32,150 nt of DNA from a virus: the UHGV virus genome UHGV-0070112; one strand, given 5' to 3'. The notes below the pieces were generated by a model that was not told the origin of the DNA, made no database searches, and saw only the letters and a list, made by a program, of their open reading frames with translations. This document shows, in pieces, positions 8,991-32,150 of this stretch. Each line of letters starts with the position of its first letter. The first letter of the stretch is position 1. The position numbers and the translations under genes were made by a program.

Positions 8991-9005
8991 CAGTATCCTA
9001 GGTCA

Positions 9006-10524: not shown

Positions 10525-10642
10525 TTTTTAATGTTTAAGCTGTGTGTCGAAGTGACCACTCTTAACACGTTACATAACAAAATGCGGACCGCGTTAGTGA
10601 TTTTTTTATTTCCTCACGCTAAGGTAGGTTTACAAGAACGGA

Positions 10643-11527: not shown

Positions 11528-11533
11528 GTAGGA

Positions 11534-12206: not shown

Positions 12207-12221
12207 CTGCCCTCTTATAAC

Positions 12222-12587: not shown

Positions 12588-12604
12588 TCATATTCTCCAT
12601 ACAC

Positions 12605-13660: not shown

Positions 13661-13668
13661 AATCCCCC

Positions 13669-14199: not shown

Positions 14200-14202
14200 C
14201 CC

Positions 14203-15045: not shown

Positions 15046-15121
15046 ACATTTTTATGTGACGAAGGGCCTGCACGCCCGTTTCGTTTGCACTCTTTGACAT
15101 TACTGCCATATCGGCGAACTT

Positions 15122-18906: not shown

Positions 18907-19084
18907 AGTTTTCCCCTGCGCTGATCAGCATTAACAAGTGCTCTCAGTAACCAGTAACGGCGATCAAAGCTGAAAAGGTCATTTCTGAGGAGTGCATATT
19001 TTCTGCGAAAAATAACGTCGTGCTGCCACCAGTAACGCCAGTGATGCAAACGCACAAGGCGCCGGAGACTTATCAAAATCCTCT

Positions 19085-19543
19085 TCAATCGGAGCACAAG
19101 TCACCTCCGCAGTAATTTCCGGCCAGATAGCATGACCCGGCGGAATCATTCATGTTTCTGGCGTTTCGAACAGAAGCATTCTTAAGACGCAGGTATCGCT
19201 CTCTTGCTTTAGCCGTACAGTTGCTGTCACAAAGTTGCTGCCATACCGTCGCCGCACGGCGGTAATAGCGTTTCTCTTCCAGCTTTTTGGCTGTCGCTTC
19301 AAGGGCAAGAATCTCCCCCGAAAGCCCACCAGGCAGGTACTCTTCAATATCGATGGATCCCGCTACGAAGTAGATAAACCCACCAGTAACTTCAACGCTG
19401 GCAAGTTCCCCGTCGTAGTAAAGGCGATGAACAGCGCTCTTCACTGTTACCGGTTTGGTTCCAGGAAATGCCGCAGTGATATCGCGCAGCATTTTGCCGG
19501 GATTCTTCTCAATAAATTCAAAGATCGACTTGGCTATGTTCAT
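19085..19543 (-). CDS. Hypothetical protein with PerC-like C-terminal region
   Basis: 152 aa; C-terminal KKLEEKRYYRRAATVWQQLC...RERYLRLKNA resembles PerC-family regulators. ATG overlaps the stop of the upstream replication gene. Confidence 0.4.
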   Translation of the reverse strand: MNIAKSIFEFIEKNPGKMLRDITAAFPGTKPVTVKSAVHRLYYDGELASVEVTGGFIYFVAGSIDIEEYLPGGLSGEILALEATAKKLEEKRYYRRAATVWQQLCDSNCTAKARERYLRLKNASVRNARNMNDSAGSCYLAGNYCGGDLCSD

Positions 19544-20451
19544 CCCCGGAACCCCCGTGGAATCGTGGTTTGTACTGGACTAATTGAATTAACATCCCGC
19601 GGTCTGGTTTTGTCCCACGACTCCCTTGGCGGGCGGCCTTTAGCATCCCAACGGATAGCGCTTTGCAGATATCCCTCGAATTTTTTAGGGCCGAAAAGTG
19701 TCTCGGGTCGCATGTACTGGTATTGCTCGTCGTTGCCATGCCAGTGCTCATGCTTGATGTCAATTACCAGTTTCAAGTCGCTAACGGTATGACCTTCGCG
19801 GAGGCGGGCGCGAATGTTCTCCAGCGAGGTCTTAGATTTCTGGTAACGGGAACCGCTGACCAGATTCAGGTGTGCCAGAACTTCGATCGCGTTATCGGTA
19901 ATAACAACTTCAGGATCCGGCTTATCGTCGGGTTCCGCAGGAGCCCGACAAGAAGGTTTTTTAGATGACGGATCTAATGACGGATCTAATGACGGATCGC
20001 CTTCAACCATTGAGGGGTCCTCCCGCAATATTTGAGGGGGTACAGACCCATTATTTGAGGCATCAGAATTTGACCCCTCAAATTTTGAACCCTCAAATTC
20101 TGAGGCATCAAATTTTGATTGTTCACGTGGCGTTGCGTAGAAAATTTTTGCTTCAGCTGCTGCACGTTCCAGCATGTCAACATTGAGTTTATAAACGTTC
20201 GAATTATTCTTTCCGCCCACGCGCCGTTCCTGCTTCTTCAGCCAGCCTTTAGCCTGAAGCTTTTTGATAGCGCTGCGGACAGTATTCTCGCTCTTGGCGC
20301 CGATCTGTCGCTGAATAGTGGTTACCGCTGGCCATGACACACCTTCGTCATTACTGAAATCTGCCAGGCGAGCCATGACCGCTATTTCTGAGATTATCAG
20401 CCCTTTGAAAGCGCATGCTTCCCATACGAGGCCGTGTAATTTACTGCTCAT
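19540..20451 (-). CDS. Replication initiation protein (O-like) with conserved phage C-terminal domain
   Basis: 303 aa; N-terminal HTH-like region, central low-complexity linker encoded by the iteron repeats, C-terminal VLAHLNLVSGSRYQ...LKLVIDIKHEHWHG typical of phage replication proteins. Confidence 0.7.
   Translation of the reverse strand: MSSKLHGLVWEACAFKGLIISEIAVMARLADFSNDEGVSWPAVTTIQRQIGAKSENTVRSAIKKLQAKGWLKKQERRVGGKNNSNVYKLNVDMLERAAAEAKIFYATPREQSKFDASEFEGSKFEGSNSDASNNGSVPPQILREDPSMVEGDPSLDPSLDPSSKKPSCRAPAEPDDKPDPEVVITDNAIEVLAHLNLVSGSRYQKSKTSLENIRARLREGHTVSDLKLVIDIKHEHWHGNDEQYQYMRPETLFGPKKFEGYLQSAIRWDAKGRPPRESWDKTRPRDVNSISPVQTTIPRGFRG
19965..20115. repeat. Iteron-like repeats (candidate origin) inside the replication gene
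   Basis: Direct repeats gacggatctaat x3 (19965-20000) followed by at least six copies of TTTGAGGG / CCCTCAAA-type units in both orientations (20008-20115). Confidence 0.5.
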
Positions 20452-20620
20452 GGCTGCCCTCTACTTCCCTGAACTTGCGTTGAAACTGATCGAGTGGGCT
20501 AAAGCACTCGTGGGAATAGCCTTCCCGCAGGTAGATGACGCGACGTGTCTCAGGCTCCCAGCGGATAACTCTGACTGGATTGCCATAGTGGTCTTTGAAC
20601 TTCCGGTTAACTTCTCGCAT
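20441..20620 (-). CDS. Hypothetical 59-aa protein, coupled to replication gene
   Basis: Manual translation MREVNRKFKDHYGNPVRVIRWEPETRRVIYLREGYSHECFSPLDQFQRKFREVEGSHEQ. GGAGGG RBS; stop overlaps the replication-gene start. Replaces the track ORF 20461..20808, which is in another frame. Confidence 0.4.
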   Translation of the reverse strand: MREVNRKFKDHYGNPVRVIRWEPETRRVIYLREGYSHECFSPLDQFQRKFREVEGSHEQ

Positions 20621-20792
20621 AACGCTTTTGCCCTCCGGTTAAAGACCCCCACAACTCCGCGTGCCCGACTGTGGTTACACTTGACCCATTTACCGCATAC
20701 CATGCGCTCATACCGAAACGACGAAACGCCCGGGATCGGGTACATCCGTAGTTGCGGTAATTGAAGATTTACGATTAAATTGCTCATGCGGA

Positions 20793-21344
20793 TTATTTCT
20801 CCATACACAAAGATTTATTCGCCACGACGCCCGGAGCTGCACACTCGCGGGCGTCACTATTTTCTGGCAGGCAATAAACACGAGAAATCAGGTTGAGAAA
20901 CGTCATCAGCGTGACCCTGAACTGGTAGGCGATATCATTCAGACTTTGCCACTCCCCGTGTGTAACCACCCCATCATCGATATATTCCCGATAGGCGCTG
21001 ACCAGCTCGCCGAGTTGTCCCACCAGCTCCGCCAGCTTCAAACCAATCTCTTCGTTCTCGTCTTCATGAGCTGCGCCAGATACATGGATCCCGTTGTCGG
21101 TTTCACGTGAAAAAACATCGGCGATGTAGCTAACACCTGCTGCCTTCTGCAGGACCATTGCCCAGCCCATAGGGAATATCTGATCTCCACCAGCACGCAG
21201 CCGGTTAAAGATCGCGTCCTGGGTGGTATCCAGAATCTCAGCTGCTTCGATATAGCCACCAGGTAACGCGGCTATTGTTTTACGGATTGCTGCCACCAGC
21301 CACGCGGGCTGTTTTTCTACTTTCCAGGTTGGTTCATTACCCAC
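20793..21344 (-). CDS. cII-position regulatory protein (family uncertain)
   Basis: Start revised to GTG 21344 with AAGGGG RBS just after the cro stop; the track start at 21431 would overlap cro by 59 nt. Occupies the cII position. Confidence 0.4.
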   Translation of the reverse strand: MGNEPTWKVEKQPAWLVAAIRKTIAALPGGYIEAAEILDTTQDAIFNRLRAGGDQIFPMGWAMVLQKAAGVSYIADVFSRETDNGIHVSGAAHEDENEEIGLKLAELVGQLGELVSAYREYIDDGVVTHGEWQSLNDIAYQFRVTLMTFLNLISRVYCLPENSDARECAAPGVVANKSLCMEK

Positions 21345-21372
21345 GGTGTACCCCTTATCTCTGTGGTTCCTA

Positions 21373-21582
21373 TCAAACTTTTTGTTCTTTAAGCTTGCTA
21401 TACAGCTCCGGTTGGAAAACAAGTTTCCCATCGGTGCGGTACGCGGCTTCAGCAGCCCTCCCTTTTGGGATCAAGCGACCGGGTCTGTTCCGCCACTGAT
21501 AAACAGCTTCGCTGGATATGCCAAAGAACTCGGCTACCTTCTCAGCGTTTCCAAAGTACTTTTCAACATCATCGGTGGTCAT
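21373..21582 (-). CDS. cro: Cro-like repressor (HTH)
   Basis: 69 aa with HTH (VAEFFGISSEAVYQWRNR). AGGAG RBS. Divergent from cI across an operator-bearing gap. Confidence 0.65.
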   Translation of the reverse strand: MTTDDVEKYFGNAEKVAEFFGISSEAVYQWRNRPGRLIPKGRAAEAAYRTDGKLVFQPELYSKLKEQKV

Positions 21583-21682
21583 AATGGCTCCTTTAACTAA
21601 GTTTGATTAGATAATAATTACCAATCTATCTTTGGTCAATAAAAACTAAGATTGCTTAGCTTGATTGACTACTGGTGTGTAA
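21583..21682. promoter_or_regulatory. Right operator/promoter region between cro and cI
   Basis: 100-bp AT-rich gap carrying CTAAGtttgaTTAG (21596-21609) and CTAAGattgCTTAG (21645-21658); the same half-site family recurs downstream of cI. Confidence 0.45.
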
Positions 21683-22309
21683 ATGGAAACTGTCGGACAA
21701 CGAATAAAATCGCTTAGGCGAATCACCAGAACCTCACAAAAAGAGCTTGGGAAGTTTTGTGGGGTCAGTGATGTCGCAGTTGGGTATTGGGAAAAGGACG
21801 TAAACGTCCCAGGAGGGGAATCTCTTTCCAAACTAGCAAAATTCTTCAATACATCAATTGATTACATACTTTTTGGCACTGAGTTTGAGGGAAACTTAAT
21901 AACTAAGATGCGAAAAGTTCCCGTGATATCGTGGGTGCAAGCAGGATTATTCACTGAATCAAAGCCTGAAGATGTCTTGCATGATGCCGAAAAATGGGTG
22001 GAAACGTCTCTCCGCATCAGCGATAACTCGTTTGCCCTTGAAGTAAAGGGAGACTCAATGACAAATCCTAATGGACTGCCCACGATTCCTGAAGGCGCAA
22101 CGGTCATCGTTGATCCAGACATTGAGCCAATTCATGGAAAGATTGTAGTTGCACGAATAGATGGGACCAACGAGGCCACGGTCAAAAAACTGGTTGTAGA
22201 CGGTCCGCAAAAATTTCTTGTCCCGCTAAATCCCCGTTATCCTAACATCGCCATCAATGGTAACTGCGTCATTATTGGTGTGGTTAAAGGCGTTCAATAC
22301 GAGCTCTGA
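21683..22309 (+). CDS. cI: CI-type repressor (HTH plus S24 LexA-like peptidase domain)
   Basis: 208 aa; N-terminal HTH (TSQKELGKFCGVSDVAVGYWEK), C-terminal S24 domain with catalytic-serine motif KGDSM and downstream Lys. Confidence 0.85.
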   Translation: METVGQRIKSLRRITRTSQKELGKFCGVSDVAVGYWEKDVNVPGGESLSKLAKFFNTSIDYILFGTEFEGNLITKMRKVPVISWVQAGLFTESKPEDVLHDAEKWVETSLRISDNSFALEVKGDSMTNPNGLPTIPEGATVIVDPDIEPIHGKIVVARIDGTNEATVKKLVVDGPQKFLVPLNPRYPNIAINGNCVIIGVVKGVQYEL

Positions 22310-22327
22310 TCTAAGCTAATCTCCCTT

Positions 22328-22358
22328 CGACACCAAGCTAAGAAAAGTTTGGTGTTTT
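22328..22358 (+). terminator. Intrinsic terminator after cI
   Basis: Stem ACACCAA / TTGGTGT with 12-nt loop, followed by TTTTT. Confidence 0.5.
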
Positions 22359-22369
22359 TTCTTGACGAC

Positions 22370-22398
22370 AAAACTAAGTTAAGTTAGATTTTCATCTA
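22370..22398 (+). promoter_or_regulatory. Candidate PL promoter with embedded left operator
   Basis: TTGACG, 17-bp spacer, TAGATT. The spacer holds CTAAGttaaGTTAG, the same half-site family as the cro-cI operators. Confidence 0.4.
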
Positions 22399-22494
22399 TC
22401 AACAGCGAAGAGGCAGGACGCCCACGAAGTAGCCGCCCGGGGCATATGAAGTCCGGGATGATTCGCTGACAGATAAACCAAATAGGAACAGATC

Positions 22495-22728
22495 ATGGCA
22501 AGCAAAGGCATTGAAAACCTTATCAAGGACGCATTAGCAAACGGCTGTCATGTAGTCCGTAAAGCGCATCGCTTCGAGGTAAGCAAGAAAGGCCAAAAAT
22601 CAATCACTCTTATTATTTGTGAAGATGGCACAGCTTACCGGGGAGATATTGACCTAACGATCGCCATAGCCATTCGCACTCAAAAAGAAATGCGCAGCAT
22701 CCTCGGCCTGCCGGCCAAGGCAAGTTAA
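22495..22728 (+). CDS. Hypothetical 77-aa protein, first ORF after candidate PL
   Basis: AGGA RBS 8 nt upstream; no recognisable motif; not Arg-rich. Sits in the slot lambda uses for rexAB. Confidence 0.4.
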   Translation: MASKGIENLIKDALANGCHVVRKAHRFEVSKKGQKSITLIICEDGTAYRGDIDLTIAIAIRTQKEMRSILGLPAKAS

Positions 22729-23360
22729 TTACCACAGGTATCTTCGGGAGGGGTTGCGAAGCTGGATTGACCACCAGCAACAGAAACTCACCCGACATAC
22801 AGCAGCCGTTTAACCCACGGCGTCGGGGGTCCAGTAGACCTGGATTAATACTGTAGGGGTTGTGCCGGTTGGTCGCCGGCGCCCCGCCCGAAGATACCTG
22901 AACGAACATGGCGAAGCCGACAGCGTTGAAGGCGATTTTCTCGGTTTGCGCGCTAAACAATAGCGGGGGTGAAATCGGGGCGGAGAAGCAGAATCCGCGA
23001 TGTCGGGACTTGATACTTCCGGCCATACCAACAAGCCGAATGATCGCGTAACGATCCTTTGCATCTGCCCCGGCGAGGTGGCGCCGCCGGACCGGGGTAG
23101 ATGAATCGTACACAACATGAAAGCGCATTCCATCTTCATCCGTCGTGGGGACTGGTTTGTAACTGAAGGAGTGCGCTTCCAGTTGTGAACGGCAATATTC
23201 ACGACCGTTGTATGGCACATGCAGCGTTAGCAGCCCGGATGGTTCCCTTGAAGTTCCATGCGCTATCCGGACAACTGGAATGTGCAAGCCAAGTGTTTCA
23301 GGCACGACGTGCGCCCCACCAGCGCGGCGAAAAGGTGTGACGCCCGGGAAGAGTCCGGGA

Positions 23361-23475
23361 CACAACAGGTAAGAGCATTCCCGCCACACGAGGCTGAAAC
23401 CCAATCGCCATGTGGATGCGCCGAAAAGCTACGACGGGGCGTTGGTAGAAGATCGGAGTGCTCTCTCCGTTGTGG
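23361..23475 (+). other. Paired-motif element, early-left copy
   Basis: CACAACAGGTAAGAGCATT ... ~77 nt ... GGAGTGCTCTCTCCGTTGTGG on the plus strand; same arm sequences as 8374-8476. Inside a GC-rich ORF-poor stretch. Confidence 0.3.
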
Positions 23476-23616
23476 TAATTGCGGCTATGCGCACGTGGCG
23501 AGCCAACCCGTTCATGGAATGCGTTTCCGGGCAGTGTACGTCGCCGGTTATGGCTTAACCCGGCAGGTGGAGGCACCACCGCCACAACCTAGTTAACTGT
23601 GCTGTGTGTAGTCTTG

Positions 23617-23687
23617 GCGGTTATCCAGTTTTCCACTATCCAAAGGAGGAAGAGGATAACGTTCTGATGGATAACCGCCCTTTTTAC
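23617..23687 (+). promoter_or_regulatory. 11-bp perfect inverted repeat enclosing the RBS and start of a small ORF
   Basis: GGCGGTTATCC (23617-23627) and GGATAACCGCC (23669-23679) bracket AAGGAGGAAGAGGA and the ATG at 23667; followed by CTTTTTAC. Confidence 0.4.
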
Positions 23688-23828
23688 ACAATACACAAGA
23701 GCATCACCGGGCGACGGGCTCATTACCCAATCCACCCGGGCGGATTTGCAGCCGCAGGTGCTCTTCTGTGTTGTGTACGGAGAAATTCCCGGCGGTGGCA
23801 GCCGCCTTTCGAGAGGGTAAAACCATGA
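23667..23828 (+). CDS. Hypothetical 53-aa Arg-rich protein
   Basis: MDNRPFYTIHKSITGRRAHYPIHPGGFAAAGALLCCVRRNSRRWQPPFERVKP. GAGGA RBS 10 nt upstream; stop overlaps the next gene's ATG (ATGA). Could be spurious in GC-rich DNA. Confidence 0.3.
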   Translation: MDNRPFYTIHKSITGRRAHYPIHPGGFAAAGALLCCVRRNSRRWQPPFERVKP

Positions 23829-24196
23829 GTAATGATCGCATGACAGTCGTGCCCGATTTCCTGGGCGAACTGGACGCCGGCGTATTCATGAACAAGATTG
23901 CGGCGGCTCTGAATACCACCGCGCTCGGCGTTCTGAACAACGGCAACAAAGGCAAAGTAGTCCTGACCTTTGATTTTGAGCGTATGGGCAACTCTGTTGA
24001 AGAGAAGCGCGTCAAGATTAAGCACAAGCTGAACTACAGCACCCCAACTCCCCGCGGAAAAGCGTCGGAAGAGGACACCACCGAAACACCAATGTGGGTC
24101 AATAAAGGCGGCAAGCTCACCATCCTGCAGGAGGATCAAGGGCAACTCTTCGGTATCACCGGCACGGTGGACGGAAAGCTTAAAGCGGCTCAGTGA
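23825..24196 (+). CDS. Hypothetical early-left protein
   Basis: Start revised to ATG 23825 (MSNDRMTVVPDFLGE...) with GAGGG RBS; 123 aa. Confidence 0.5.
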   Translation: MSNDRMTVVPDFLGELDAGVFMNKIAAALNTTALGVLNNGNKGKVVLTFDFERMGNSVEEKRVKIKHKLNYSTPTPRGKASEEDTTETPMWVNKGGKLTILQEDQGQLFGITGTVDGKLKAAQ

Positions 24197-24252
24197 TCCG
24201 CACGCACAAATTCACTGATACCACTTCGCTAATCAGTTAATAAGGAATTTTT

Positions 24253-25080
24253 ATGTCTCAGTTAGACAGCGGTACTTTTCAGCAGGTTAAAGACCTGGTG
24301 CTTTCCGGTTATCACCTGAACGATATCCACGGCCTGGCCTGCCCGACCGCCCTGTTACCTCAAAATACAAGCGTTGAAAGCCTGGAGCGTTTTTCTTATG
24401 AGCGCTTCCGTTTCCGTGGCGCCATGGACACAACCAGTATTGATGATTTCGTTCGCTATTCTGTTGGTTATGCCCAGGAAGAAGAAAAAGCACGTTGCTT
24501 TATTGATGCCGATAACATGCTTGCTCGCTCTATCTTCAACATCGGTACGCTGGATAACCCAGGCCACGCTGATAACGTCGCCTCGATCAAGCTTAAGAAG
24601 ACAGCACCCTTCCGCGCGTTACTGGCGATCAACGGCGATCACCTTAATCAGAAGCAAATCGCCGAATGGCTCGAAGACTGGAGCGACTATCTCACTGCGT
24701 TCGATGCTGACGGACAGACAATGAAAATGGCACAGGCGGCGCAGGCGGTTCGCCGTGTCACTATCCAGCAAACTAATGCCGCCGATCATGAAGACGGTGA
24801 TTTCAGCGGCAAAAAATCGCTGATGCAAAGTATCGAAGCCAGCAGTAAAGATGTTATGCCGGTCGCTTTTGAATTTATGTGTGTACCGTATGAGGGCTTG
24901 GGCGAGCGTCGTTTCAGTCTGCGCAACAGCCTGCTGAAAAGTAGCGACCCGGTGTTTGTTCTGCGCATTGTCCAGTTGGAGGCGCAGGAAGAAGCGATCG
25001 CCAATGAGTTCCGTGACCTGTTGGTTGGCAAGTTCGACGGCAAGCCGGTAGAAACCTTCATCGGTAACTTCAAAGCCTAA
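24253..25080 (+). CDS. DUF2303-like prophage protein (from recollection)
   Basis: 275 aa; size and position match DUF2303/YfdQ-type proteins of lambdoid prophage early-left operons as I recall them. Confidence 0.5.
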   Translation: MSQLDSGTFQQVKDLVLSGYHLNDIHGLACPTALLPQNTSVESLERFSYERFRFRGAMDTTSIDDFVRYSVGYAQEEEKARCFIDADNMLARSIFNIGTLDNPGHADNVASIKLKKTAPFRALLAINGDHLNQKQIAEWLEDWSDYLTAFDADGQTMKMAQAAQAVRRVTIQQTNAADHEDGDFSGKKSLMQSIEASSKDVMPVAFEFMCVPYEGLGERRFSLRNSLLKSSDPVFVLRIVQLEAQEEAIANEFRDLLVGKFDGKPVETFIGNFKA

Positions 25081-25209
25081 TTCAAAGCCTGATTGCTCAG
25101 CCTTAAATCCCCGCAGCTGCGGGGATTTATTGAAGCGTAATCCTGTAATTAATCGCCACCTGGCGAGGGATTCCTACACCCAAAAAACAGCGCTGTGCAG
25201 GCGTAAAGT

Positions 25210-25749
25210 ATGGAGAAAAAAATGAGCTTTATTCAAACCTTTTCAGGCAAACATTTTAACTATCTCGACATCCAGCAAGACGCCATCGAGATCGAAGATA
25301 TTGCTAATGCACTCTCGAACATCTGCCGCTTTGCCGGTCACCTGCCTGAGTTCTACAGCGTCGGCCAGCACAGCGTTTTAACAAGCCAACTGGTACCTCA
25401 AGAATTTGCGCTTGAAGCGCTGCTGCATGACGCCGCCGAGGCATATTTGCAGGATATCCCTGCCCCATTGAAACGCCTTCTTCCTGACTACCGCGCCATT
25501 GAAGATCAGGTTGATGCAGCTATTCGCCAAAAATTCGGCCTGCCGGCTGAGCAGCACCCAACCGTTAAATATGCCGACCTGGTGATGCTGGCCAGCGAAC
25601 GTCGCGACTTTGAGATCGACTACGGCACCCACTGGCCGATGCTCGACGGCGTCATTCCTACTGACCAGTTTGTGATTAATCCCGTCCGCCCGGGCCAGTC
25701 TTACGGCATGTTCATGAACCGCTTTAACCAACTGATGGAGCGGCGCTAA
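25210..25749 (+). CDS. HD-domain phosphohydrolase
   Basis: 179 aa; His at ICRFAGH and HD dyad at ALLHDAAEAYLQD, consistent with the HD metal-dependent phosphohydrolase fold. Confidence 0.6.
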   Translation: MEKKMSFIQTFSGKHFNYLDIQQDAIEIEDIANALSNICRFAGHLPEFYSVGQHSVLTSQLVPQEFALEALLHDAAEAYLQDIPAPLKRLLPDYRAIEDQVDAAIRQKFGLPAEQHPTVKYADLVMLASERRDFEIDYGTHWPMLDGVIPTDQFVINPVRPGQSYGMFMNRFNQLMERR

Positions 25750-25949
25750 TGGCACATGTGAAAGTGAAAGAATTGGTTGCTGCAGCATACGCTGCAGCAC
25801 CTGACCTACCACCAGCAGCAGCACAATTAATGCAAGACATAGCGTCAAGGCTGGATGTCACCTTTGTCGCCCTTACAGAGGCAATGGACCAGAACACCGC
25901 TATGGCCGCGATGATAGCGAACCTGAGCGAGGAAAACAGAAATGGCTAA
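25749..25949 (+). CDS. Hypothetical small protein
   Basis: 66 aa, Ala-rich; ATG overlaps the upstream stop and its 3' end overlaps the ParB-like start. Confidence 0.4.
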   Translation: MAHVKVKELVAAAYAAAPDLPPAAAQLMQDIASRLDVTFVALTEAMDQNTAMAAMIANLSEENRNG

Positions 25950-26727
25950 AAACTCGATCGATGCTTATGGCGCCAGCGGCAAGACAAACGTTCTGATGTT
26001 CGAGCCGGAAAATCTGCATATTGTCACTGACAAGGCCCACCCGCTTTACGATGAGCGAGTCAGTCTGCCGATCGATGAAGGGATGGTGCTGAATATCAAG
26101 GAGCTGGGTGTTCTTGAGCCGATTATTGTCTGGAAAGACCCTGAAAAGGGGCTCACCTGTGTGGTTGTCGGTCGTCAGCGCGTTAAACATACGCTGGAAG
26201 CCAATAAGCTCCTGCTGAAAGAAGGCAAAACACCGCTGCTTGTTCCTGGAGTCGTTAAGCGTGGGTCGGCATACCAAATGGCCAAATACATGGTTAGCGA
26301 AAACGAAATACGCCGACCTGATACGCCGTTAGGTCGCGCTAAGAAAATGTCCGACGCGCTGGACCGTGGTCATGACGAGGACGACCTTGCGGTGTTGTTT
26401 GGCTGTAGCGTTCAGACCGTACGAGCAACGCTGTCACTACTCGATGCTACCCAGGCTGTTCGGGAAGCGGTGGAGTCCGGCACAGTCACCGTTACCCAGG
26501 CGCGTCAGCTTGGCGCGCTCCCACCTGAAGAGCAGCGGGCAAAAGTGGCAGAAATCGAGCTGGCGACAGCTGGTACCAAAGGCCATGAAAAATCCCGTCG
26601 GCAGCGTCAGGTTCTCGGTGAGGCAAAGCGGCGCATCAAATCACGTAAGGAAATCACAAAAGCCCTCGAAGATGCCAGCGGCGAATATGCCGAGGCTCTG
26701 CTCTGGGTACTTGGGGAGGCGAAATGA
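25942..26727 (+). CDS. ParB-like nuclease-domain protein
   Basis: 261 aa; N-terminal ParB/Srx-like region (LEPIIVWKDPEKGLTCVVVGRQRVKH), central HTH-like segment, basic C-terminus. RBS GAGGAAAACAGAA. Confidence 0.65.
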   Translation: MAKNSIDAYGASGKTNVLMFEPENLHIVTDKAHPLYDERVSLPIDEGMVLNIKELGVLEPIIVWKDPEKGLTCVVVGRQRVKHTLEANKLLLKEGKTPLLVPGVVKRGSAYQMAKYMVSENEIRRPDTPLGRAKKMSDALDRGHDEDDLAVLFGCSVQTVRATLSLLDATQAVREAVESGTVTVTQARQLGALPPEEQRAKVAEIELATAGTKGHEKSRRQRQVLGEAKRRIKSRKEITKALEDASGEYAEALLWVLGEAK

Positions 26728-26858
26728 ACTTTGAACCTGAAAATTACAGCCGGCGCGCCCTTCTCTGGTTTGCGGCACTGGTTAGTGTTGCCGGGTGGGT
26801 TGCAGTAGTCGCTGTGACCTGGGGCGTATGCATGATGATCGAATGGGTGACGGCATGA
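26724..26858 (+). CDS. Hypothetical 44-aa membrane peptide
   Basis: Manual translation MNFEPENYSRRALLWFAALVSVAGWVAVVAVTWGVCMMIEWVTA. ATG overlaps the ParB-like stop and its stop overlaps the next ATG. Confidence 0.4.
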   Translation: MNFEPENYSRRALLWFAALVSVAGWVAVVAVTWGVCMMIEWVTA

Positions 26859-27079
26859 AAGTGAAATGCATCAAAGATACCGAGGGTTGGTGGACTGAGG
26901 GTGAAATGTATCCTGCCCGTGTAGTTGCTGGCGGGTTTGTCCAAGTCGGCGACGATGACGATCCCAATGGCGAAGGCTGGAGCGCTGCACCAATGGAATA
27001 TCGGGAAGATGGCTCGATAGTTTATCAGGTCGGCGGTATTGAGGGTGATGCGTTATTCGAGGAGGCCAGCCATGACTGA
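26855..27079 (+). CDS. Hypothetical small acidic protein
   Basis: Start revised to ATG 26855 (MKVKCIKDTEGWW...), 74 aa; the longer track ORF starts upstream without a convincing RBS. Confidence 0.4.
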   Translation: MKVKCIKDTEGWWTEGEMYPARVVAGGFVQVGDDDDPNGEGWSAAPMEYREDGSIVYQVGGIEGDALFEEASHD

Positions 27080-28106
27080 TATCACCGAACTGGCGCAGGG
27101 TGACATCGACCGGCGTTGTCTGGCAGAAAACACCTTTAATTTGATTTCCATGTCCGGCGGGAAAGACTCGTTAGCCCAATGCCTGTATGCCGTAGAGAAC
27201 GGCGTGAAGCACGATCGGGTGTTTGCTGATACGGGCCATGAACACCCTCAGACGATGGAATATCTGGATTATCTTGAACAAAAGCTGGGTCCGATTCGCC
27301 GGGTAAAAGCTGATTTCACTCGCCAGATTGAGGGTAAACGTAAATTCATTGCAGAAAAATGGCCGGTTTCCCTCGTTGAAGAATGCGGGATGTCTCACGA
27401 TGAAGCGGAGGAGCGTATCGCCCGTGCACTGGAAATCCTCCACCCAACCGGTAATCCATTTCTGGACCTGTGCATGTGGAAAGGTCGATTCCCGAGCACA
27501 AAAGCGCGGTTCTGCACGTTCGACCTTAAACATGAGCCTGTACGCACTCAGGTGGTGCTACCGGCGCTTGATGAATATGACGAGGTTATTAGTTGGCAGG
27601 GCGTACGCGCCCAAGAATCGCCAGCGCGGGCTGGCCTGCCGATGTGGGAAGAGGATGCAGATAATACTCCTGGTCTGCACGTCTATCGCCCAATTCTCAA
27701 TTGGCTGCATGAAGATGTGTTTGCTATTGCAAAACGCCATGGAATTAAGCCAAACCCACTATATCTGCAAGGCTGTAGTCGCGTTGGGTGTATGCCATGC
27801 ATTCACGCTCGAAAATCTGAATTAGCGGAGATTTTCCAGCGTTGGCCGGAGGAAATAGCCAGGGTAGCAAAGTGGGAGCGCTTCGTTGCAGCTTGCTCTC
27901 GCCGCGGCAACTCTACATTTTTCCCATCAACCCATGATCCGCGCCGGGCAGAACGTCGTATAGACGTTATCACGGTGGACGGTTACGGGATTGAAACCTA
28001 TCGCGACTGGGCGATGACAACCCGAGGCGGAGCCCAGTTCGATTTACTGGCTGAAGCTAACGACAAATCCGTGTGTAGCAGCGTTTATGCAGGGGTGTGT
28101 GAGTGA
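27072..28106 (+). CDS. PAPS-reductase-like (phosphoadenosine phosphosulfate reductase family) protein
   Basis: Start revised to ATG 27072 with strong GAGGAGG RBS. P-loop-like SMSGGKDS near the N-terminus and Cys-rich C-terminal region (CSRVGCMPC). Confidence 0.7.
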   Translation: MTDITELAQGDIDRRCLAENTFNLISMSGGKDSLAQCLYAVENGVKHDRVFADTGHEHPQTMEYLDYLEQKLGPIRRVKADFTRQIEGKRKFIAEKWPVSLVEECGMSHDEAEERIARALEILHPTGNPFLDLCMWKGRFPSTKARFCTFDLKHEPVRTQVVLPALDEYDEVISWQGVRAQESPARAGLPMWEEDADNTPGLHVYRPILNWLHEDVFAIAKRHGIKPNPLYLQGCSRVGCMPCIHARKSELAEIFQRWPEEIARVAKWERFVAACSRRGNSTFFPSTHDPRRAERRIDVITVDGYGIETYRDWAMTTRGGAQFDLLAEANDKSVCSSVYAGVCE

Positions 28107-28279
28107 TTGATCTTGCTGAGTGCGAAGCACGTGCACTCATTAAAAACCTGCAGCAGCGGATAAAGTGGAAAGAGGAATTAGCTCCTCTCAATCATCTTGA
28201 AGCGCAAGACCTGATTATTTATCGGATAGCACTTGAGGCGCTCGAAGAGGCATTGAATGAACGAAAAATTATTGAATGA
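28103..28279 (+). CDS. Hypothetical 58-aa protein
   Basis: Manual translation (M)IDLAECEARALIKNLQQRIKWKEELAPLNHLEAQDLIIYRIALEALEEALNERKIIE. GTG start overlaps the PAPS-reductase-like stop. Confidence 0.35.
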   Translation: MIDLAECEARALIKNLQQRIKWKEELAPLNHLEAQDLIIYRIALEALEEALNERKIIE

Positions 28280-28416
28280 CGACGTGAAAATTCTCCTTCG
28301 TCAGATAGAAGACGGCAAGCCATATGTCGAACTTATTAACTTCATGGTTAATCAGTTCGGATTGACGTACCGAGAGGCGCAGGAAGTCCATGAGAAGTTG
28401 AGTCGGGAGAGTGATT
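28255..28416 (+). CDS. Hypothetical 53-aa protein
   Basis: Manual translation MNEKLLNDDVKILLRQIEDGKPYVELINFMVNQFGLTYREAQEVHEKLSRESD. GAGG RBS; the next gene starts 2 nt after its stop. Confidence 0.35.
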
Positions 28417-28418
28417 AA

Positions 28419-29297
28419 ATGACCAATAACCAGTTAAACAGAGAACGTCTGGAAAAAATTAAATCATGGCGTGAAACCTATGGATCTGAAAGCAACGTAA
28501 TGCTGCCAGCAGAAGAAGCGGAAGAGCTGGCCCGCATGGCGCTGGACGCAATGGACGGTGAGCCGGTTGTGTTCACAGATGAACGAAACCTTCATCATAT
28601 TGCTATGGGCCGAGAAACATCTCTGATTTGGGGTAAACAAAACCAGCTGGCGGGGGATATCCCGCTCTATCGCCACGCGCAGCCAGCGCCGGACCGCGAG
28701 CAGGTACGCCGTGAGCACGCCGAGTGGTCACAGGCTACGTTCGGTAATGTCGGCCCGGTTGGCCCACTGAAGCACCTGGCAAAAGAGGCTATGGAGGCCG
28801 CAGCGGAACCAGATGACCTGTCGGAGTGGGCTGATATGCAATTCCTGCTGTGGGATGCCCAGCGCCGGGCTGGTATTACAGACGAGCAGATTACCCAGGC
28901 GATGATCGAAAAACTGGCGGTGAACAAACAGCGCGAATGGCCTGAGCCGAAAGACGGTGAGCCGCGGTTGCACATTAAAGATCAACCATCGGCGGTAGGG
29001 CCAGTAACAGATGCTATGGCTTACGCATTCCATCATGCGCTAACCGATGGTCCCCTGGGTGATGACGATGTGGAGGATATTAAGATCGGATTGAGAGCAG
29101 CTTTCGCTAATGTAACCACCTATCAGCCATTACCAGTAGTGCTGAAAGAGCATCAAATCCGTGAACTAATCAATAAACTGCGTGATATAGCTATTGAATA
29201 TCACAGTACACAACAATTGCGTGAGCATATTGCTTGTGTTGTCCACGCCGCTATGAGCGCGATCGCACCACCAGCGCCAAAAAGCGCAGTTAATTAA
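28419..29297 (+). CDS. DUF550-like (dATP/dGTP pyrophosphohydrolase-type) domain protein
   Basis: 292 aa; central REHAEWSQATFGNVGPVGPLKHLAKEAMEAAAEPDDLSEWADMQFLLWD resembles the DUF550/MazG-like domain of lambdoid early-left proteins as I recall it. Confidence 0.55.
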   Translation: MTNNQLNRERLEKIKSWRETYGSESNVMLPAEEAEELARMALDAMDGEPVVFTDERNLHHIAMGRETSLIWGKQNQLAGDIPLYRHAQPAPDREQVRREHAEWSQATFGNVGPVGPLKHLAKEAMEAAAEPDDLSEWADMQFLLWDAQRRAGITDEQITQAMIEKLAVNKQREWPEPKDGEPRLHIKDQPSAVGPVTDAMAYAFHHALTDGPLGDDDVEDIKIGLRAAFANVTTYQPLPVVLKEHQIRELINKLRDIAIEYHSTQQLREHIACVVHAAMSAIAPPAPKSAVN

Positions 29298-29324
29298 TAA
29301 TTTTCCCCGGGTGCAGCCGGGGTA

Positions 29325-29543
29325 ATGGAGAAATCTATGCTGAGCCTCGATTGTGTTCCCATCTCAACTTATTGCAAAGAGACAGGCGAAACCCCTGATG
29401 CCATAAATAAGCGCATCCAGCGTGGCGTATGGCGTGAAGGAGTACAGGTGCTAAAGGTCGAAGGCGTTAAGGAAAGATGGATAGATCTTAGTGAGGTTGC
29501 AAAATGGGCTCGACAAAATCGCCTAAACTCCCGCGCGGCGTAA
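29325..29543 (+). CDS. xis: Excisionase-like protein
   Basis: 72 aa, immediately upstream of and overlapping the integrase gene; small basic HTH-like protein. True start may be the ATG at 29337. Confidence 0.5.
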   Translation: MEKSMLSLDCVPISTYCKETGETPDAINKRIQRGVWREGVQVLKVEGVKERWIDLSEVAKWARQNRLNSRAA

Positions 29544-30694
29544 CGATCAGGAAACATAGTACTGGGGAAACTATCAATATTACCTTTACCTATAAGGGGG
29601 TGAAATGCCGGGAACCTTTATCAAACCTTGAAGTTAATAGCAAAAACATAAAATACGCCGAGCGAACACTCGGCGAAATACACAATAAAATTGAGCGGGG
29701 TACATTCAATTATGGTGAACACTTTCCCCGTTCGGCACGACTTAAAATATTTGGTAATGCTTCAACAGGAAAAACGGTAAAAAATTATCTCGATGAATAT
29801 CTTGTAATTTGTGAAACGAGAAAATTATCTCCTTCAACAATCGGCGGATATAAGAAATGTTTAAATGCTTTGGCATCACTTCACGTTTTTCCTGCCAGTG
29901 AATTAACACCTGCTGCTTTAAAAACATGGATCCAGAGTCAGAAAACGACATTAAAAACGATTAGGAACCAACTTTCATTCCTACGCTCAGCACTGGATGA
30001 AGCTGTGACTGATGGTGTATTACAGATTAACCCAGTTTCACTGGTGACAGCCTCGCGCTACCAGAGCAGTAAAACCGAGGATGAAAGTGATTATATTGTT
30101 GATCCGCTTTCACCGGCCGAGGTTGAAGCGCTTTTGCATGCCGCAGGTAACAAGCAGTGGGAAAACATATTCCGCTTTGCAATTGAAACCGGGCTACGTA
30201 GTTCTGAACTCTGCGCCCTCCGTTGGCGCGATATCGACTTTATCGGCAAAACAGCGCATGTGCAAAATGCCAGCGTAGTGGGGGTAATTAAGGGCACGAA
30301 AACTAAAGCTGGAACACGTAAAGTTGAGTTAACCGAAGAAGCCTTGTATGCCCTGATTTCTCAGAAGCCTTTCACCTTTATTAAAGATGCAACGATCTTT
30401 GAGGATCCCAAGACAGAAAAACCATGGGCGGGTGCCGATGCGATAAGAAAGAAAGCTTGGGTGCCAACTTTACGCAAAGCCGGGATCAGGTACCGCAATC
30501 CATACCAGACCAGGCATACGTTCGCGACCAGGCATATTAGTCGAGGCGCTAACCTGTTCTGGCTCGCATCGCAGATGGGACACAAAGGGCCTGAAATGTT
30601 GTTCAGGCATTATGGACGCTATCTGAAGGAGTATGACGGCAACACTGAAAAACGACCCAAGCTGGTCAGCGGTGGAACCTCAAAGGAGCCGTAA
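29504..30694 (+). CDS. int: Tyrosine integrase (lambda-Int family)
   Basis: 396 aa; C-terminal catalytic region with RHTFATRHISRGANLFWLASQMGHKGPEMLFRHYGRY (R, H-x-x-R, Y). Last phage gene before the attachment core. Confidence 0.85.
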   Translation: MGSTKSPKLPRGVTIRKHSTGETINITFTYKGVKCREPLSNLEVNSKNIKYAERTLGEIHNKIERGTFNYGEHFPRSARLKIFGNASTGKTVKNYLDEYLVICETRKLSPSTIGGYKKCLNALASLHVFPASELTPAALKTWIQSQKTTLKTIRNQLSFLRSALDEAVTDGVLQINPVSLVTASRYQSSKTEDESDYIVDPLSPAEVEALLHAAGNKQWENIFRFAIETGLRSSELCALRWRDIDFIGKTAHVQNASVVGVIKGTKTKAGTRKVELTEEALYALISQKPFTFIKDATIFEDPKTEKPWAGADAIRKKAWVPTLRKAGIRYRNPYQTRHTFATRHISRGANLFWLASQMGHKGPEMLFRHYGRYLKEYDGNTEKRPKLVSGGTSKEP

Positions 30695-30751
30695 AGGATC
30701 CGCAGCAAAACGCTACATTTTTTTATCACTGTTTATCATGAGGTTATAAAG

Positions 30752-30787
30752 TTTCGGGCGCGGGTTCAACTCCCGCCAGCTCCACCA
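30752..30787 (+). other. ssrA: Attachment core: 3'-terminal segment of the tmRNA gene ssrA
   Basis: TTTCGGGCGCGGGTTCAACTCCCGCCAGCTCCACCA matches my recollection of the E. coli tmRNA 3' end (T-arm-like stem, acceptor end, CCA). Only ~36 nt; upstream is integrase coding sequence. Confidence 0.6.
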
Positions 30788-30845
30788 AAATTCTCCATCG
30801 GTGATTACCAGAGTCATCCGATGAAGTCCTGAGAGCCCGCATGGC

Positions 30846-30868
30846 GCAAGCCCTGCGGGCTTTTTTGT
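30846..30868 (+). terminator. Intrinsic terminator in flanking DNA
   Basis: Stem AAGCCC / GGGCTT with loop TGC, followed by TTTTTTG. Confidence 0.4.
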
Positions 30869-31094
30869 GTCTGTATCGGTCTGGCGGGAATGACTGAGAA
30901 CCGCAGCCTTGTGGTACCTTTTTGGGCTCCAGGAGAAAAGAGCCAAAAAACGCGGGTCCTAAAATGGCAAAACTCATTAAGAAGCTCATTGCGGCTAAAA
31001 GCACAAGCATGAAGCCTTCAGAGCAGACAGCCTGAATATCTGTAATGGGTCAGGCAACGGTTGCCTGCACAATATGAGAAACCGCTGCGACTAT

Positions 31095-31574
31095 TCAGGC
31101 AAGGCAATCAACGGCATGGAAAAAGAGCTCTTCCGTCATGATGACATTCTCTTTTTCGCTCTGCTGTTCGCGGCGGATAAACCAGCCCGTTTCCGGCGCC
31201 ATGCTCAGGTAAAACAGCTGAGTGATTCCGGGGGCATTAACCCGCATTGTCATGCAGCCCGTTTCCGCACCTCGACAGAGCTGTTCAGGTACGATGCTGA
31301 CGTGACGATCGCCGTTCTGGAGCCGGATTGTGGTGATGTCATAACGGCATATACCGCTGTTCAGGCTATAGCCGATCGTGCTCAGATCATGAATATGCTT
31401 TGTTGATAGAATGACCTCAATGCCGGAACCCGCAAACCACTGGCTGATTTGCTGCACCAGCGCATCCATCCGGCGGCGGAATGCCTGAATTTCTGCCTCA
31501 GCGGTTTTATTGCCGGGCGGTGTGCTCTCGGAGTTCTGCTGCACTTTCTTAAAAAAACGTTCTCTGGCCGACAC
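31095..31574 (-). CDS. Hypothetical protein (flanking, outside prophage)
   Basis: 159-aa ORF to the right of the attachment core; no recognisable motif. Confidence 0.4.
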   Translation of the reverse strand: MSARERFFKKVQQNSESTPPGNKTAEAEIQAFRRRMDALVQQISQWFAGSGIEVILSTKHIHDLSTIGYSLNSGICRYDITTIRLQNGDRHVSIVPEQLCRGAETGCMTMRVNAPGITQLFYLSMAPETGWFIRREQQSEKENVIMTEELFFHAVDCLA

Positions 31575-31675
31575 GTTATCGCCCCCGTTAACTTTTAATA
31601 CGTTGTGAGATATGCGCTGAGCGGCATTCTCTTTTTTTCATCGCCTCTCCCGCCACCTTATTTTTCGTAAACAGA

Positions 31676-32137
31676 TTAAGCGCACAGCACTGCGGCACGG
31701 GCGGGATCGATGGCAATCAGCTCGGCAAGCAGGCGATCCATAGCAGACTGCAGGCGGTTTTTGTCGGTTTCACTGCGCCCGGCCTTCATGCGTAGCAGCC
31801 TGAGGTGGCGGGCTTTGACTTCGAACAGCAGACCTGTCTCCCATTGTGCCAGCGGAATTCCGGCAGCATCCGCGCCCAGTTCCGCCAGCAGGTGTTGCGC
31901 CAGCTCATTTTTGCCAGTCTGCTCGGCAATACGCGCCATCAGCAGGCGCAGCAGCCAGCGGCTGCGCACGCTGGTGATACCCGGGCGGTTCTGCAGCCAG
32001 GCCAGCGCCGCCTCCGGGCCGTCGCTGTCGGCAACCGCGAGGGCCTCCGGCTCCAGCAGCAGAATATCGTCATCGCCGGATGCGGTAGCGGCGCTGGCGG
32101 CAGTATCATCCCGCCAGCCTGCGGCGTTCTCCAGCAC
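31676..32137 (-). CDS. Hypothetical protein (flanking; true start may lie beyond the window)
   Basis: 153-aa Ala/Leu-rich ORF near the right edge. The overlapping plus-strand ORF 31805..32149 is taken as its antisense shadow. Confidence 0.4.
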   Translation of the reverse strand: MLENAAGWRDDTAASAATASGDDDILLLEPEALAVADSDGPEAALAWLQNRPGITSVRSRWLLRLLMARIAEQTGKNELAQHLLAELGADAAGIPLAQWETGLLFEVKARHLRLLRMKAGRSETDKNRLQSAMDRLLAELIAIDPARAAVLCA

Positions 32138-32150
32138 CTGCTGTTGTAAC

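What the first reader, a model, noticed from the sequence alone, without database searches (positions are those of the whole stretch)
30752..30787. Prophage boundary at the 3' end of the tmRNA gene ssrA
Directly after the integrase gene there is a 36-nt segment matching the tmRNA 3' terminus as I recall it, with no upstream tmRNA body, so it is an attachment-site core rather than an intact gene. The intact ssrA copy should lie beyond the left end of the prophage, outside this window. This fixes the right prophage boundary at about 30790.
Basis: partly seen in the sequence, partly recalled or inferred. Interest (0 to 1): 0.4.

Follow-up and report, generated by a model that had tools for sequence, protein, structure and literature searches.

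The report
Prophage right end in tmRNA gene
The 36-base segment is the displaced 3' end of the tmRNA gene ssrA, left next to a prophage's integrase gene when the phage inserted into ssrA of a Klebsiella michiganensis chromosome; this is a well-known kind of prophage boundary and nothing unusual.

Summary

- **The segment.** Window 30752-30787 matches the ssrA 3' end at 35 of 36 bases (G30758 where ssrA has A). There is no tmRNA body upstream.
- **Left of it.** Phage DNA: terminase, lysis, replication and CI genes, an excisionase (29325-29543) and an intact tyrosine integrase (29504-30694).
- **Right of it.** Chromosome. In three K. michiganensis-type contigs (12 more similar places not shown) an intact ssrA abuts a flank that is 1362/1363 identical to window 30788-32150. 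That is the empty site.
- **Where the junction lies.** Identity to the empty site runs from 30787 back to 30759. Across 36 distinct att variants of this integrase family, 30765-30787 always equals ssrA, while 30752-30764 carries phage-specific mismatches. The junction therefore lies within about 30765-30788.
- **The left end.** It cannot be seen, because the window starts at position 1 of its metagenome scaffold, inside the phage. Relatives show smpB, an intact ssrA, a phage P' arm with its own terminator, the phage, the integrase, and then the ssrA fragment.

Two things go beyond the finding: paired arm-type repeats about 100 bases either side of the core, and a remnant of an island integrase (30873-31035) just right of the site. 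The case is ordinary and already known in kind.

The parts
1..30751 (.). Right-hand 30.8 kb of a mosaic temperate prophage. From left to right: truncated terL, terS, HNH endonuclease, holin and endolysin, DNA methyltransferase, replication initiator, Cro/CI switch, early genes, xis, int.
   Evidence: PHROGs hits for terS, HNH, endolysin, holin, methyltransferase, replication initiator and CI repressor. Patchy 91-96% DNA identity to Klebsiella prophage record OK490421. Positions 1-55 do not match relatives of this region.
29325..29543 (+). Excisionase (72 aa); its ORF overlaps the start of int.
   Evidence: phrog_2917 excisionase, E 5e-43, full length. A gene annotated xis has the same position in Citrobacter phage phiNP.
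29504..30694 (+). Tyrosine integrase, 396 aa, full length, with an N-terminal arm-binding domain.
   Evidence: Pfam Arm-DNA-bind_2 (9e-22), Phage_int_SAM_5 and Phage_integrase (1.2e-16). phrog_1 integrase. Exact sequence named as a site-specific integrase of K. michiganensis, WP_155005690.1. The translation contains R, K, HxxR, H and Y in the order expected of the catalytic residues; this is read by eye and not tested.
30682..30702 (+). Two direct repeats 11 nt apart, AAAGGAGCCG (30682-30691) and AAAGGATCCG (30693-30702). They are inferred arm-type integrase binding sites of the P arm and overlap the int stop codon.
   Evidence: The same paired motif lies at a fixed -106/-95 from the core end in relatives, and a degenerate AAAG-type pair sits at about that place when 0.9-2.9 kb of cargo separates int from the core. 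The tandem AAAGGATACGCAAAGGAGCCGC lies at +89 to +110 in the P' arm of attL and attP loci. Binding was not tested.
30752..30787 (+). Bodyless copy of the last 36 nt of ssrA, the attR core. T-stem 5' strand 30760-30764, T-loop 30765-30771, T-stem 3' strand 30772-30776, acceptor 3' strand 30777-30783, ACCA 30784-30787. G30758 differs from ssrA, which has A.
30765..30788 (+). Zone that must contain the phage/chromosome crossover. It is identical in attP-derived and attB-derived DNA.
   Evidence: Across 36 distinct att variants next to integrases of this family, none differs from ssrA at 30765-30782; a single variant differs at each of 30783, 30785 and 30786. Positions 30752-30764 differ in up to 19 of 36, and DNA left of 30751 is unrelated to ssrA. 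The P' arm and the host trailer share only the A after CCA.
30788..30872 (+). Host-side ssrA trailer: a small hairpin followed by an intrinsic terminator.
   Evidence: It directly follows intact ssrA in the empty-site contigs and in most of the 80 species loci read out of 106 hits. A terminator-like site lies at 30848-30862 followed by a T run.
30873..31035 (+). Remnant of the 5' region of a P4-type island integrase: leader plus about 20 codons (pseudo-ORF 30964-31035). It is part of the normal chromosome of this species.
   Evidence: Window 30834-31023 is 72% identical (139/192, E 2e-24) to the E. coli ssrA terminator, integrase leader and first codons. The protein-level match is weak, 10 of 21 residues, E 0.017. 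The segment is also present in the empty-site contigs.
31095..32150 (-). Chromosomal flank: a 159-aa hypothetical gene (31095-31574) and the C-terminal part of the type VI secretion gene tssA (31676 to the window end).
   Evidence: Pfam T6SS_VasJ. Exact proteins named K. michiganensis. Same neighbours in empty-site contigs.

Best explanation
The segment is attR, the right attachment site of a temperate phage integrated into the 3' end of the tmRNA gene ssrA of Klebsiella michiganensis.

The phage attP carries about 36 nt resembling the ssrA 3' end. The last 23-24 nt (T-loop through CCA, plus one A) are an exact copy; the 13 nt before that are an imperfect copy.

The phage tyrosine integrase has an arm-binding N-terminal domain. 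It recombines attP with the ssrA 3' end, with strand exchange somewhere in 30765-30788.

Integration leaves ssrA intact at the far (left) end. There the last ~24 nt and a new terminator are supplied by the phage P' arm. The original ssrA 3' end, its trailer and its terminator are left without a gene body at the integrase end of the prophage, which is what the window shows. With Xis, the reverse reaction would restore the empty site.

Shown: the sequence identity, the phage genes to the left, the empty site in conspecific genomes, the linkage of this integrase family to the core, and attL structures in relatives.

Inferred: the position of strand exchange, the arm-site function of the repeats, the activity of this particular prophage, and the intact ssrA at its own left end.
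For: - Sequence: 35/36 match to ssrA and none expected by chance; no tmRNA body.
- Integrase and excisionase lie directly to the left, and phage genes fill the rest of the window.
- Empty site: L569, L573 and L575 have smpB, an intact 364-nt ssrA and a flank 1362/1363 identical to window 30788-32150. Uninterrupted identity to the window runs leftwards only to 30759.
- The same junction occurs in the complete K. michiganensis genome CP017450.1 (L570).
- Family linkage: 54 of 80 IMG/VR loci (53 of them among the 79 IMG/VR loci plus the window) with integrases 84-99% identical have a same-strand ssrA core downstream and no tmRNA. Seven species genomes show a relative of the window's integrase (67-87% identical) upstream of a bodyless core.
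- Per-position pattern across 36 att variants.
- Complete examples: E. coli strain 190; IMG/VR contigs with intact ssrA at one end and this type of integrase at the other, such as 2884398328_000007 and 3300011552_000019.
- Left end of this phage type: a mosaic relative shares the window's attR junction and 790 nt of right flank at 98.5% identity. Its contig ends at the start codon of a DUF4236 gene. In Klebsiella genomes that gene lies 290 nt after an intact ssrA plus P' arm.
- Literature: the tmRNA flank is a hotspot with extreme prophage diversity in Escherichia and Salmonella (PMC3603311).
Against: The left end of this prophage is not in the window or on its scaffold, so its own attL and intact ssrA were not seen. 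Phages of this group are mosaic: the closest relatives match the window in patches of 87-99% identity, so the left end inferred from relatives may differ in detail. Nothing here shows that the prophage is still able to excise. The crossover position rests on comparative polymorphism, not on mapping of strand exchange.
Confidence: 0.93

Rival explanations
1. The segment is an attP or a junction between two tandem prophages (P arm, core, P' arm). The DNA to its right would then be phage DNA too, and 30790 would not be the edge of mobile DNA.
For: Such P-core-P' junctions exist in relatives. In IMG/VR contig 2657245512_000001, a 99% identical integrase and the same P arm are followed by the phage P' arm ATCATGATTGGAC... 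and phage cargo genes.
Against: In the window the core is followed by the ssrA trailer, not the P' arm. The next 1363 nt are 1362/1363 identical to the DNA that follows intact ssrA in prophage-free conspecific contigs, and continue into tssA and a fimbrial operon.
Confidence: 0.02
2. The segment is what remains of an ssrA gene destroyed by insertion or deletion. The genome would have no intact ssrA linked to this prophage.
For: No tmRNA body lies within 30 kb to the left, and the left end of the prophage is not available.
Against: The break with ssrA lies exactly where this integrase family's attP homology ends, and the phage-side bases carry family-typical mismatches. In every relative where both ends could be read, ssrA is intact at the far end. 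In Escherichia and Salmonella a single tmRNA gene was found in every genome examined (PMC3603311).
Confidence: 0.03
3. The core copy belongs to the decayed island whose integrase remnant lies at 30873-31035. It would be that island's own attL core, and the prophage merely lies next to it with a different, unrecognised attachment site.
For: An integrase remnant follows the trailer. In most species an identical core plus trailer is followed by a P4-type integrase about 200 nt downstream.
Against: In the empty-site contigs the core is simply the 3' end of intact ssrA with the same remnant downstream. So the only difference between occupied and empty sites is the phage DNA ending within 30752-30788. 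This integrase family is linked to an ssrA core at a fixed 72-nt distance regardless of what lies to the right. The two readings are compatible in one respect: in a serially used site, one core copy serves as the right end of the newer element and the left end of the older one.
Confidence: 0.02

Closest known systems
Integration of temperate phages and islands into the 3' end of ssrA in enterobacteria, for example the P4-like cryptic prophage CP4-57 of E. coli K-12 and the P2-like Salmonella phages Fels-2 and SopEPhi (Williams 2002, 2003; cited from my own knowledge and from the reference list of PMC3603311)
   Same: A tyrosine integrase is next to attP. A copy of the ssrA 3' end is carried by the element. 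ssrA is reconstituted at one end and a bodyless 3' fragment is left at the other. The site is used serially. About 30 phage records carry the same 38-nt ssrA end, and PMC3603311 calls the tmRNA flank a hotspot with extreme prophage diversity.
   Different: The integrase here is of the DUF3596 / Arm-DNA-bind_2 type and lies at the end far from intact ssrA, transcribed towards the core. The P4-type island integrases seen here lie directly after intact ssrA. The exact-identity part of its core is only about 24 nt.
Prophage at ssrA in E. coli strain 190 (NZ_CP020520.1, 1155617-1199427)
   Same: Same layout: smpB, intact ssrA, P' arm with the same arm motif and its own terminator, 43.5-kb lambdoid prophage, xis-like gene, integrase (75% DNA identity), ssrA fragment with mismatches only in its 5' part, terminator, island integrase.
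   Different: An extra 798-bp gene lies between the integrase and the core. The phage body and the host are different.
GenBank record OK490421 (unverified 'Klebsiella phage Kp4866-6') and IMG/VR contig 2718218255_000001
   Same: Patchy 91-99% DNA identity to the window prophage. Same order of integrase, P arm, core and trailer. The IMG/VR contig also shares the window's right flank.
   Different: Mosaic differences exist in the early and lysis regions. In OK490421 the core has A rather than G at the 30758 position and is followed by an intact island integrase. Neither record reaches attL.
Lambda-type att sites (core flanked by arm-type Int sites, Xis-dependent excision)
   Same: The integrase has an arm-binding N-terminal domain, an excisionase is present, and int is transcribed towards the core. 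Paired direct repeats lie about 100 bp either side of the core.
   Different: The repeats are only inferred to be arm sites. No IHF or Xis sites were identified. The target is an RNA gene end rather than an intergenic site.

Membership tests
Prophage attachment site (attR) in the 3' end of a tRNA or tmRNA gene | A segment identical to the 3' end of the target gene, without the gene body, at the edge of the element | tested here: met
   35/36 match to ssrA; no tmRNA body by ARAGORN or Rfam.
Prophage attachment site (attR) in the 3' end of a tRNA or tmRNA gene | A site-specific recombinase gene of the element lies next to the site | tested here: met
   Intact 396-aa tyrosine integrase ends 57 nt upstream, with an excisionase before it.
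Prophage attachment site (attR) in the 3' end of a tRNA or tmRNA gene | Related genomes have an empty site in which the intact gene abuts the same flank, with homology breaking inside the shared segment | tested here: met
   L569, L573 and L575: intact ssrA followed by a flank 1362/1363 identical; identity to the window ends at 30759, or at 30752 allowing one mismatch.
Prophage attachment site (attR) in the 3' end of a tRNA or tmRNA gene | A second copy of the core at the other end of the same element, as part of the intact gene (attL) | not testable with these tools
   The window begins at position 1 of its scaffold, inside the phage. The feature is met in relatives: E. coli strain 190, IMG/VR contigs and Klebsiella attL loci.
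Prophage attachment site (attR) in the 3' end of a tRNA or tmRNA gene | The linkage of this integrase lineage to this core is conserved across hosts | tested here: met
   54 of 80 IMG/VR loci (53 of them among the 79 IMG/VR loci plus the window) and 7 species genomes have the core downstream of a related integrase.
tmRNA gene (Rfam RF00023) | A full-length RNA with tRNA-like domain, pseudoknots and tag reading frame, scoring at or above the gathering threshold | tested here: not met
   37.6 bits against a gathering score of 47; 312 internal model positions absent; ARAGORN reports 0 genes.
Lambda-type tyrosine integrases with arm-type binding | An N-terminal arm-binding domain plus the catalytic tyrosine-recombinase domain | tested here: met
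   Pfam Arm-DNA-bind_2 (9e-22) and Phage_integrase (1.2e-16).
Lambda-type tyrosine integrases with arm-type binding | Repeated arm-type sites in both the P and P' arms that are bound by the integrase | tested here: inconclusive
   Conserved paired repeats at -106/-95 and at +89/+100. Binding cannot be tested here.
IsrM sRNA (Rfam RF02763) | A match to the whole 329-nt model at the gathering score | tested here: not met
   30.6 bits against a gathering score of 376; only the terminator hairpin and 7 nt at the 5' end align.

The most novel reading that the evidence does not exclude
The bodyless ssrA end might not be inert. It is fused to the 3' untranslated region of int. In the prophage it is followed by the host trailer and terminator; in the free phage it is followed by the P' arm. 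The two states therefore give int transcripts with different 3' ends. A T-arm/acceptor-like 3' element could act as a state-dependent processing or stability signal for int mRNA, as the sib site does for lambda int. Separately, the comparative pattern would define a 23-24-nt minimal core, with the T-loop as the likely overlap region, for an uncharacterised DUF3596 integrase lineage.
Probability: 0.05. Interest if true: 0.45.

Novelty: already known. Interest (0 to 1): 0.12.

Why it matters
It fixes the right edge of a prophage in a Klebsiella michiganensis metagenome scaffold to a 24-base zone. It also shows that everything right of 30788 is ordinary chromosome, which helps annotation and prophage delimitation. 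It adds one more example to the long-known use of the tmRNA gene as a landing site. The comparative set gathered here gives a usable definition of this integrase family's att site: 36 att variants, an exact core of about 24 nt, and paired repeats about 100 bp on each side. That definition could be used to find the boundaries of related prophages automatically. None of this changes current understanding.

Tried and rejected
- **attL on the same DNA.** Another assembly (a Logan contig) with the same integrase also appears, from its length and range, to break near window position 1. IMG genome 2718218255 holds two prophage contigs that share the terL sequence, so a repeat may explain the breaks.\n- **attL in GenBank record OK490421.** The record extends 5.9 kb left of the window, but it has no tmRNA and only one core copy.\n- **Walking along IMG/VR contig 2718218255_000001.** Four scans reached the contig end without a core. 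The contig stops at the start codon of a DUF4236 gene, about 290 nt short of where the core lies in relatives.\n- **Citrobacter phage phiNP as a source of attP.** Its integrase is related (73% DNA identity over the 3' part), but it has no ssrA core and so uses another site.\n- **A tRNA-like minihelix.** The Rfam alignment paired GGAGCCG (30685-30691) with the acceptor 3' strand. I rejected this. The heptamer is one unit of a tandem repeat kept at a fixed distance from the core, and the same repeat recurs in the P' arm. The pairing would also give A3-U70 rather than the G3-U70 of tmRNA, read from the sequence.\n- **Is the trailer island-borne rather than native?** It is exactly conserved over 50 nt in 106 species hits and is usually followed by a P4-type integrase. 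In K. michiganensis, however, it is simply what follows intact ssrA. Its ultimate origin was not resolved.\n- **Identifying the species from the 80 readable genome loci.** This failed: only the trailer matched. Exact protein look-up gave K. michiganensis.\n- **Williams 2002 and 2003.** Neither paper is held in the library.

Full report
**1. The observation**

Window 30752-30787 reads TTTCGGGCGCGGGTTCAACTCCCGCCAGCTCCACCA. A search of 5,426 complete E. coli genomes matched the query from exactly position 30752 onwards, and the matched feature is annotated ssrA. The alignment with an annotated E. coli ssrA shows 35 of 36 identical bases, with G30758 where ssrA has A.

The 28-mer 30760-30787 occurs once in the window. 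None of 100 shuffles gave a match, even with three mismatches allowed. ARAGORN finds no tRNA or tmRNA gene in the whole window, and Rfam at gathering threshold finds no tmRNA. With permissive settings the tmRNA model scores 37.6 bits against a gathering score of 47, and it aligns only the T-arm and 3' acceptor strand.

**2. What lies to the left**

- The ORF at 29504-30694 is a full-length tyrosine integrase (Pfam Arm-DNA-bind_2, Phage_int_SAM_5, Phage_integrase).
- The overlapping ORF at 29325-29543 is an excisionase (phrog_2917, E 5e-43).
- The rest of the window holds a terminase small subunit, an HNH endonuclease, holin, endolysin, a DNA methyltransferase, a replication initiator and a CI-type repressor.
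- The DNA matches Klebsiella prophage records in patches of 91-96% identity.

The window is positions 1-32150 of a 122.8-kb metagenome scaffold: the integrase has the same coordinates in both. The sequence therefore starts inside the phage, within terL, and the phage's left end cannot be on this piece of DNA.

**3. What lies to the right, and the empty site**

The exact proteins of the 159-aa ORF (31095-31574, minus strand), of the neighbouring TssA and of the integrase are all named Klebsiella michiganensis in public records.

Looking up the 159-aa protein returned nine genomic contexts. Three of them (L569, L573, L575, with 12 further similar places not shown) have smpB, then an 815-nt gap, then the 159-aa gene, tssA and the same fimbrial operon. 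ARAGORN finds an intact 364-nt tmRNA gene in that gap. The DNA after its CCA end is 1362/1363 identical to window 30788-32150.

Reading leftwards from 30787, these empty-site contigs stay identical to the window down to 30759. They differ at 30758, match again over TTTCGG (30752-30757), and are unrelated further left. A complete K. michiganensis genome (CP017450.1, locus L570) carries the same integrase and the same junction.

**4. Linkage of this integrase family to the ssrA core**

Of the 80 best IMG/VR loci encoding integrases 84-99% identical to the window's, 54 have a same-strand ssrA core downstream and none has a tmRNA gene. The core starts 72 nt after the integrase match in most loci, or 0.9-2.9 kb after it where cargo genes intervene.

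A scan of one genome per species with the core plus trailer gave 106 hits. Among the 80 loci that could be read, seven have a relative of the window's integrase (67-87% identical) upstream of a bodyless core. Most of the others have an intact ssrA there.

Across 36 distinct variants of the 46 nt ending at the CCA:

| Window positions | Agreement with ssrA |
|---|---|
| 30765-30782 | no variant differs |
| 30783, 30785, 30786 | one variant differs at each |
| 30752-30764 | mismatches scattered, up to 19 of 36 at 30760 |
| left of 30751 | unrelated to ssrA |

At attR, the DNA left of the crossover comes from the phage. This pattern therefore means that the phage carries an imperfect copy of ssrA bases -36 to -24 and an exact copy from the T-loop onwards, and that strand exchange takes place at or to the right of 30765. 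The phage P' arm (ATCATGATTGG...) and the host trailer (AAATTCTCC...) share only the first A after CCA. That puts the right limit at 30788. The boundary is thus a zone, 30765-30788, rather than the point 30790.

**5. The far end**

In E. coli strain 190 the annotated order is smpB, intact ssrA, a 43.5-kb lambdoid prophage, an integrase 75% identical in DNA to the window's, one extra gene, an ssrA fragment with two mismatches in its 5' part, a terminator, and an island integrase.

The P' arm found there follows an intact ssrA in 28 IMG/VR loci, and follows other phages' P arms in 44 loci. Several IMG/VR contigs carry an intact ssrA plus P' arm at one end and an integrase of this family at the other, on the same strand. 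Examples are 2884398328_000007, 2836629841_000001 and 3300011552_000019, and the last also has the bodyless core.

A mosaic relative, IMG/VR contig 2718218255_000001, shares the window's integrase, junction and 790 nt of right flank at 98.5% identity. Walking along it showed a capsid, tail, tail-fibre, invertase, DinI, UmuD and UmuC series. The contig ends exactly at the start codon of a 401-aa DUF4236 gene.

Proteins 98-99% identical to that gene product are encoded 290 nt after an intact ssrA plus P' arm, just downstream of smpB, in Klebsiella genomes. These include the complete K. michiganensis genome CP182747.1. By this chain the relative is about 58 kb long, of which the window holds the right-hand 30.8 kb.

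**6. How it works**

The anatomy fits a lambda-type site:

- int is transcribed towards the core and preceded by xis.
- The integrase has an arm-binding domain.
- Two direct repeats 11 nt apart, AAAGGAGCCG at 30682-30691 and AAAGGATCCG at 30693-30702, lie about 100 nt left of the core end. The pair keeps that distance in relatives, in degenerate form where cargo genes separate int from the core.
- The tandem AAAGGATACGCAAAGGAGCCGC lies about 100 nt to the right of the core in the P' arm, followed by a phage-borne terminator.

I infer that these repeats are arm-type integrase sites. I also infer that the P' arm terminator replaces the native ssrA terminator, which integration moves to the integrase end (30848-30862 plus a T run). 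The T-stem halves (GCGGG and CCCGC) around the 7-nt T-loop form an inverted repeat, a layout described for core sites of tRNA-targeting integrases (Williams 2002, from my own knowledge). The comparative data allow the T-loop as the overlap region but do not prove it.

**7. Comparison with what is known**

Use of the ssrA 3' end by phages and islands in enterobacteria is long established. About 30 phage records in GenBank carry the same 38 nt. A survey of Escherichia and Salmonella names the tmRNA flank as a hotspot with almost all prophage genera, as well as conjugative elements and pathogenicity islands (PMC3603311).

In K. michiganensis the same site holds at least four other kinds of occupant in other genomes. 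Nearly the same prophage junction is already in public data. The finding is an ordinary example of a known kind.

**8. Verdict**

The refinements are these: the junction is a zone, 30765-30788; bases 30752-30764 are the phage's own imperfect copy of ssrA; the flank carries an old island-integrase remnant; and the host is K. michiganensis. Interest is low.

Noticed in passing
window 30873-31035: Remnant of a P4-type island integrase gene: leader plus about 20 codons (pseudo-ORF 30964-31035). It is 72% identical over 192 nt to the region after ssrA in E. coli. It is also present in the prophage-free conspecific contigs, so an older ssrA-linked island decayed here before the phage arrived.
   Followed up: partly
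window 30682-30702; P' arms of L119, L209, L275 and L576-L581 at +89 to +110 from the core end: Paired direct repeats of the form AAAGGnnCCG, 11 nt apart, about 100 bp on each side of the core. The spacing is kept even where cargo genes separate int from the core. They are probably arm-type integrase binding sites. The left pair overlaps the int stop codon.
   Followed up: partly
loci L568, L571, L572 and L574 (same chromosomal site in other K. michiganensis-type genomes): The same ssrA site carries other occupants: an arsenic-resistance island, a P4-like satellite (Psu, Ogr/Delta, AlpA, D5-type primase) and a two-integrase island. Each has a shorter, degenerate core (...ACTCCGCCAGCCCACCA) next to the identical right flank.
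   Followed up: partly
window 30780-30829, and loci L013-L092: The last 8 nt of ssrA plus the 42-nt trailer (a 50-nt pattern) are exactly conserved in 106 species hits, from Klebsiella to Xenorhabdus, Photorhabdus, Serratia and Pantoea. This holds even where the ssrA T-arm differs. The trailer is usually followed by a P4-type integrase 192-206 nt downstream. It is unresolved whether the trailer is a conserved part of the ssrA transcription unit or travels with the islands.
   Followed up: partly
loci L199-L277 (IMG/VR): One P' arm (TCATGATTGGAC[A/G]GTG...) is shared by phages with many unrelated P arms (44 loci), and it follows intact ssrA in 28 loci. The ssrA-proximal arm, with its terminator and often a DUF4236 gene, behaves as an exchangeable module.
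   Followed up: partly
window 1-55: The first 55 bases do not match the terL region of any relative; matches start at position 56. Instead, bases 3-55 match a stretch of L438 (3386-3438), a locus fetched for a tail-gene relative. This is either a mosaic joint or an assembly artefact at the scaffold end. IMG genome 2718218255 holds two prophage contigs sharing this terL, which may explain why assemblies break here.
   Followed up: partly
window 6989-7189, minus strand: Rfam STnc100 sRNA (71.6 bits, gathering score 47), located between the lysis genes and the DNA methyltransferase gene.
   Followed up: no
window 30778-30866: Weak Rfam match to the Salmonella sRNA IsrM (30.6 bits, far below gathering). 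It is confined to the terminator hairpin and 7 nt at the ssrA end. One possibility, not checked, is that IsrM's terminator derives from an ssrA trailer.
   Followed up: no
locus L008 (ENA contig k141_590): In one assembly the same integrase and tssA are followed by tssB and then by DinI and a resolvase gene, which resembles the left-end module of another prophage. The small type VI secretion remnant may be flanked by mobile DNA on both sides in some strains.
   Followed up: no
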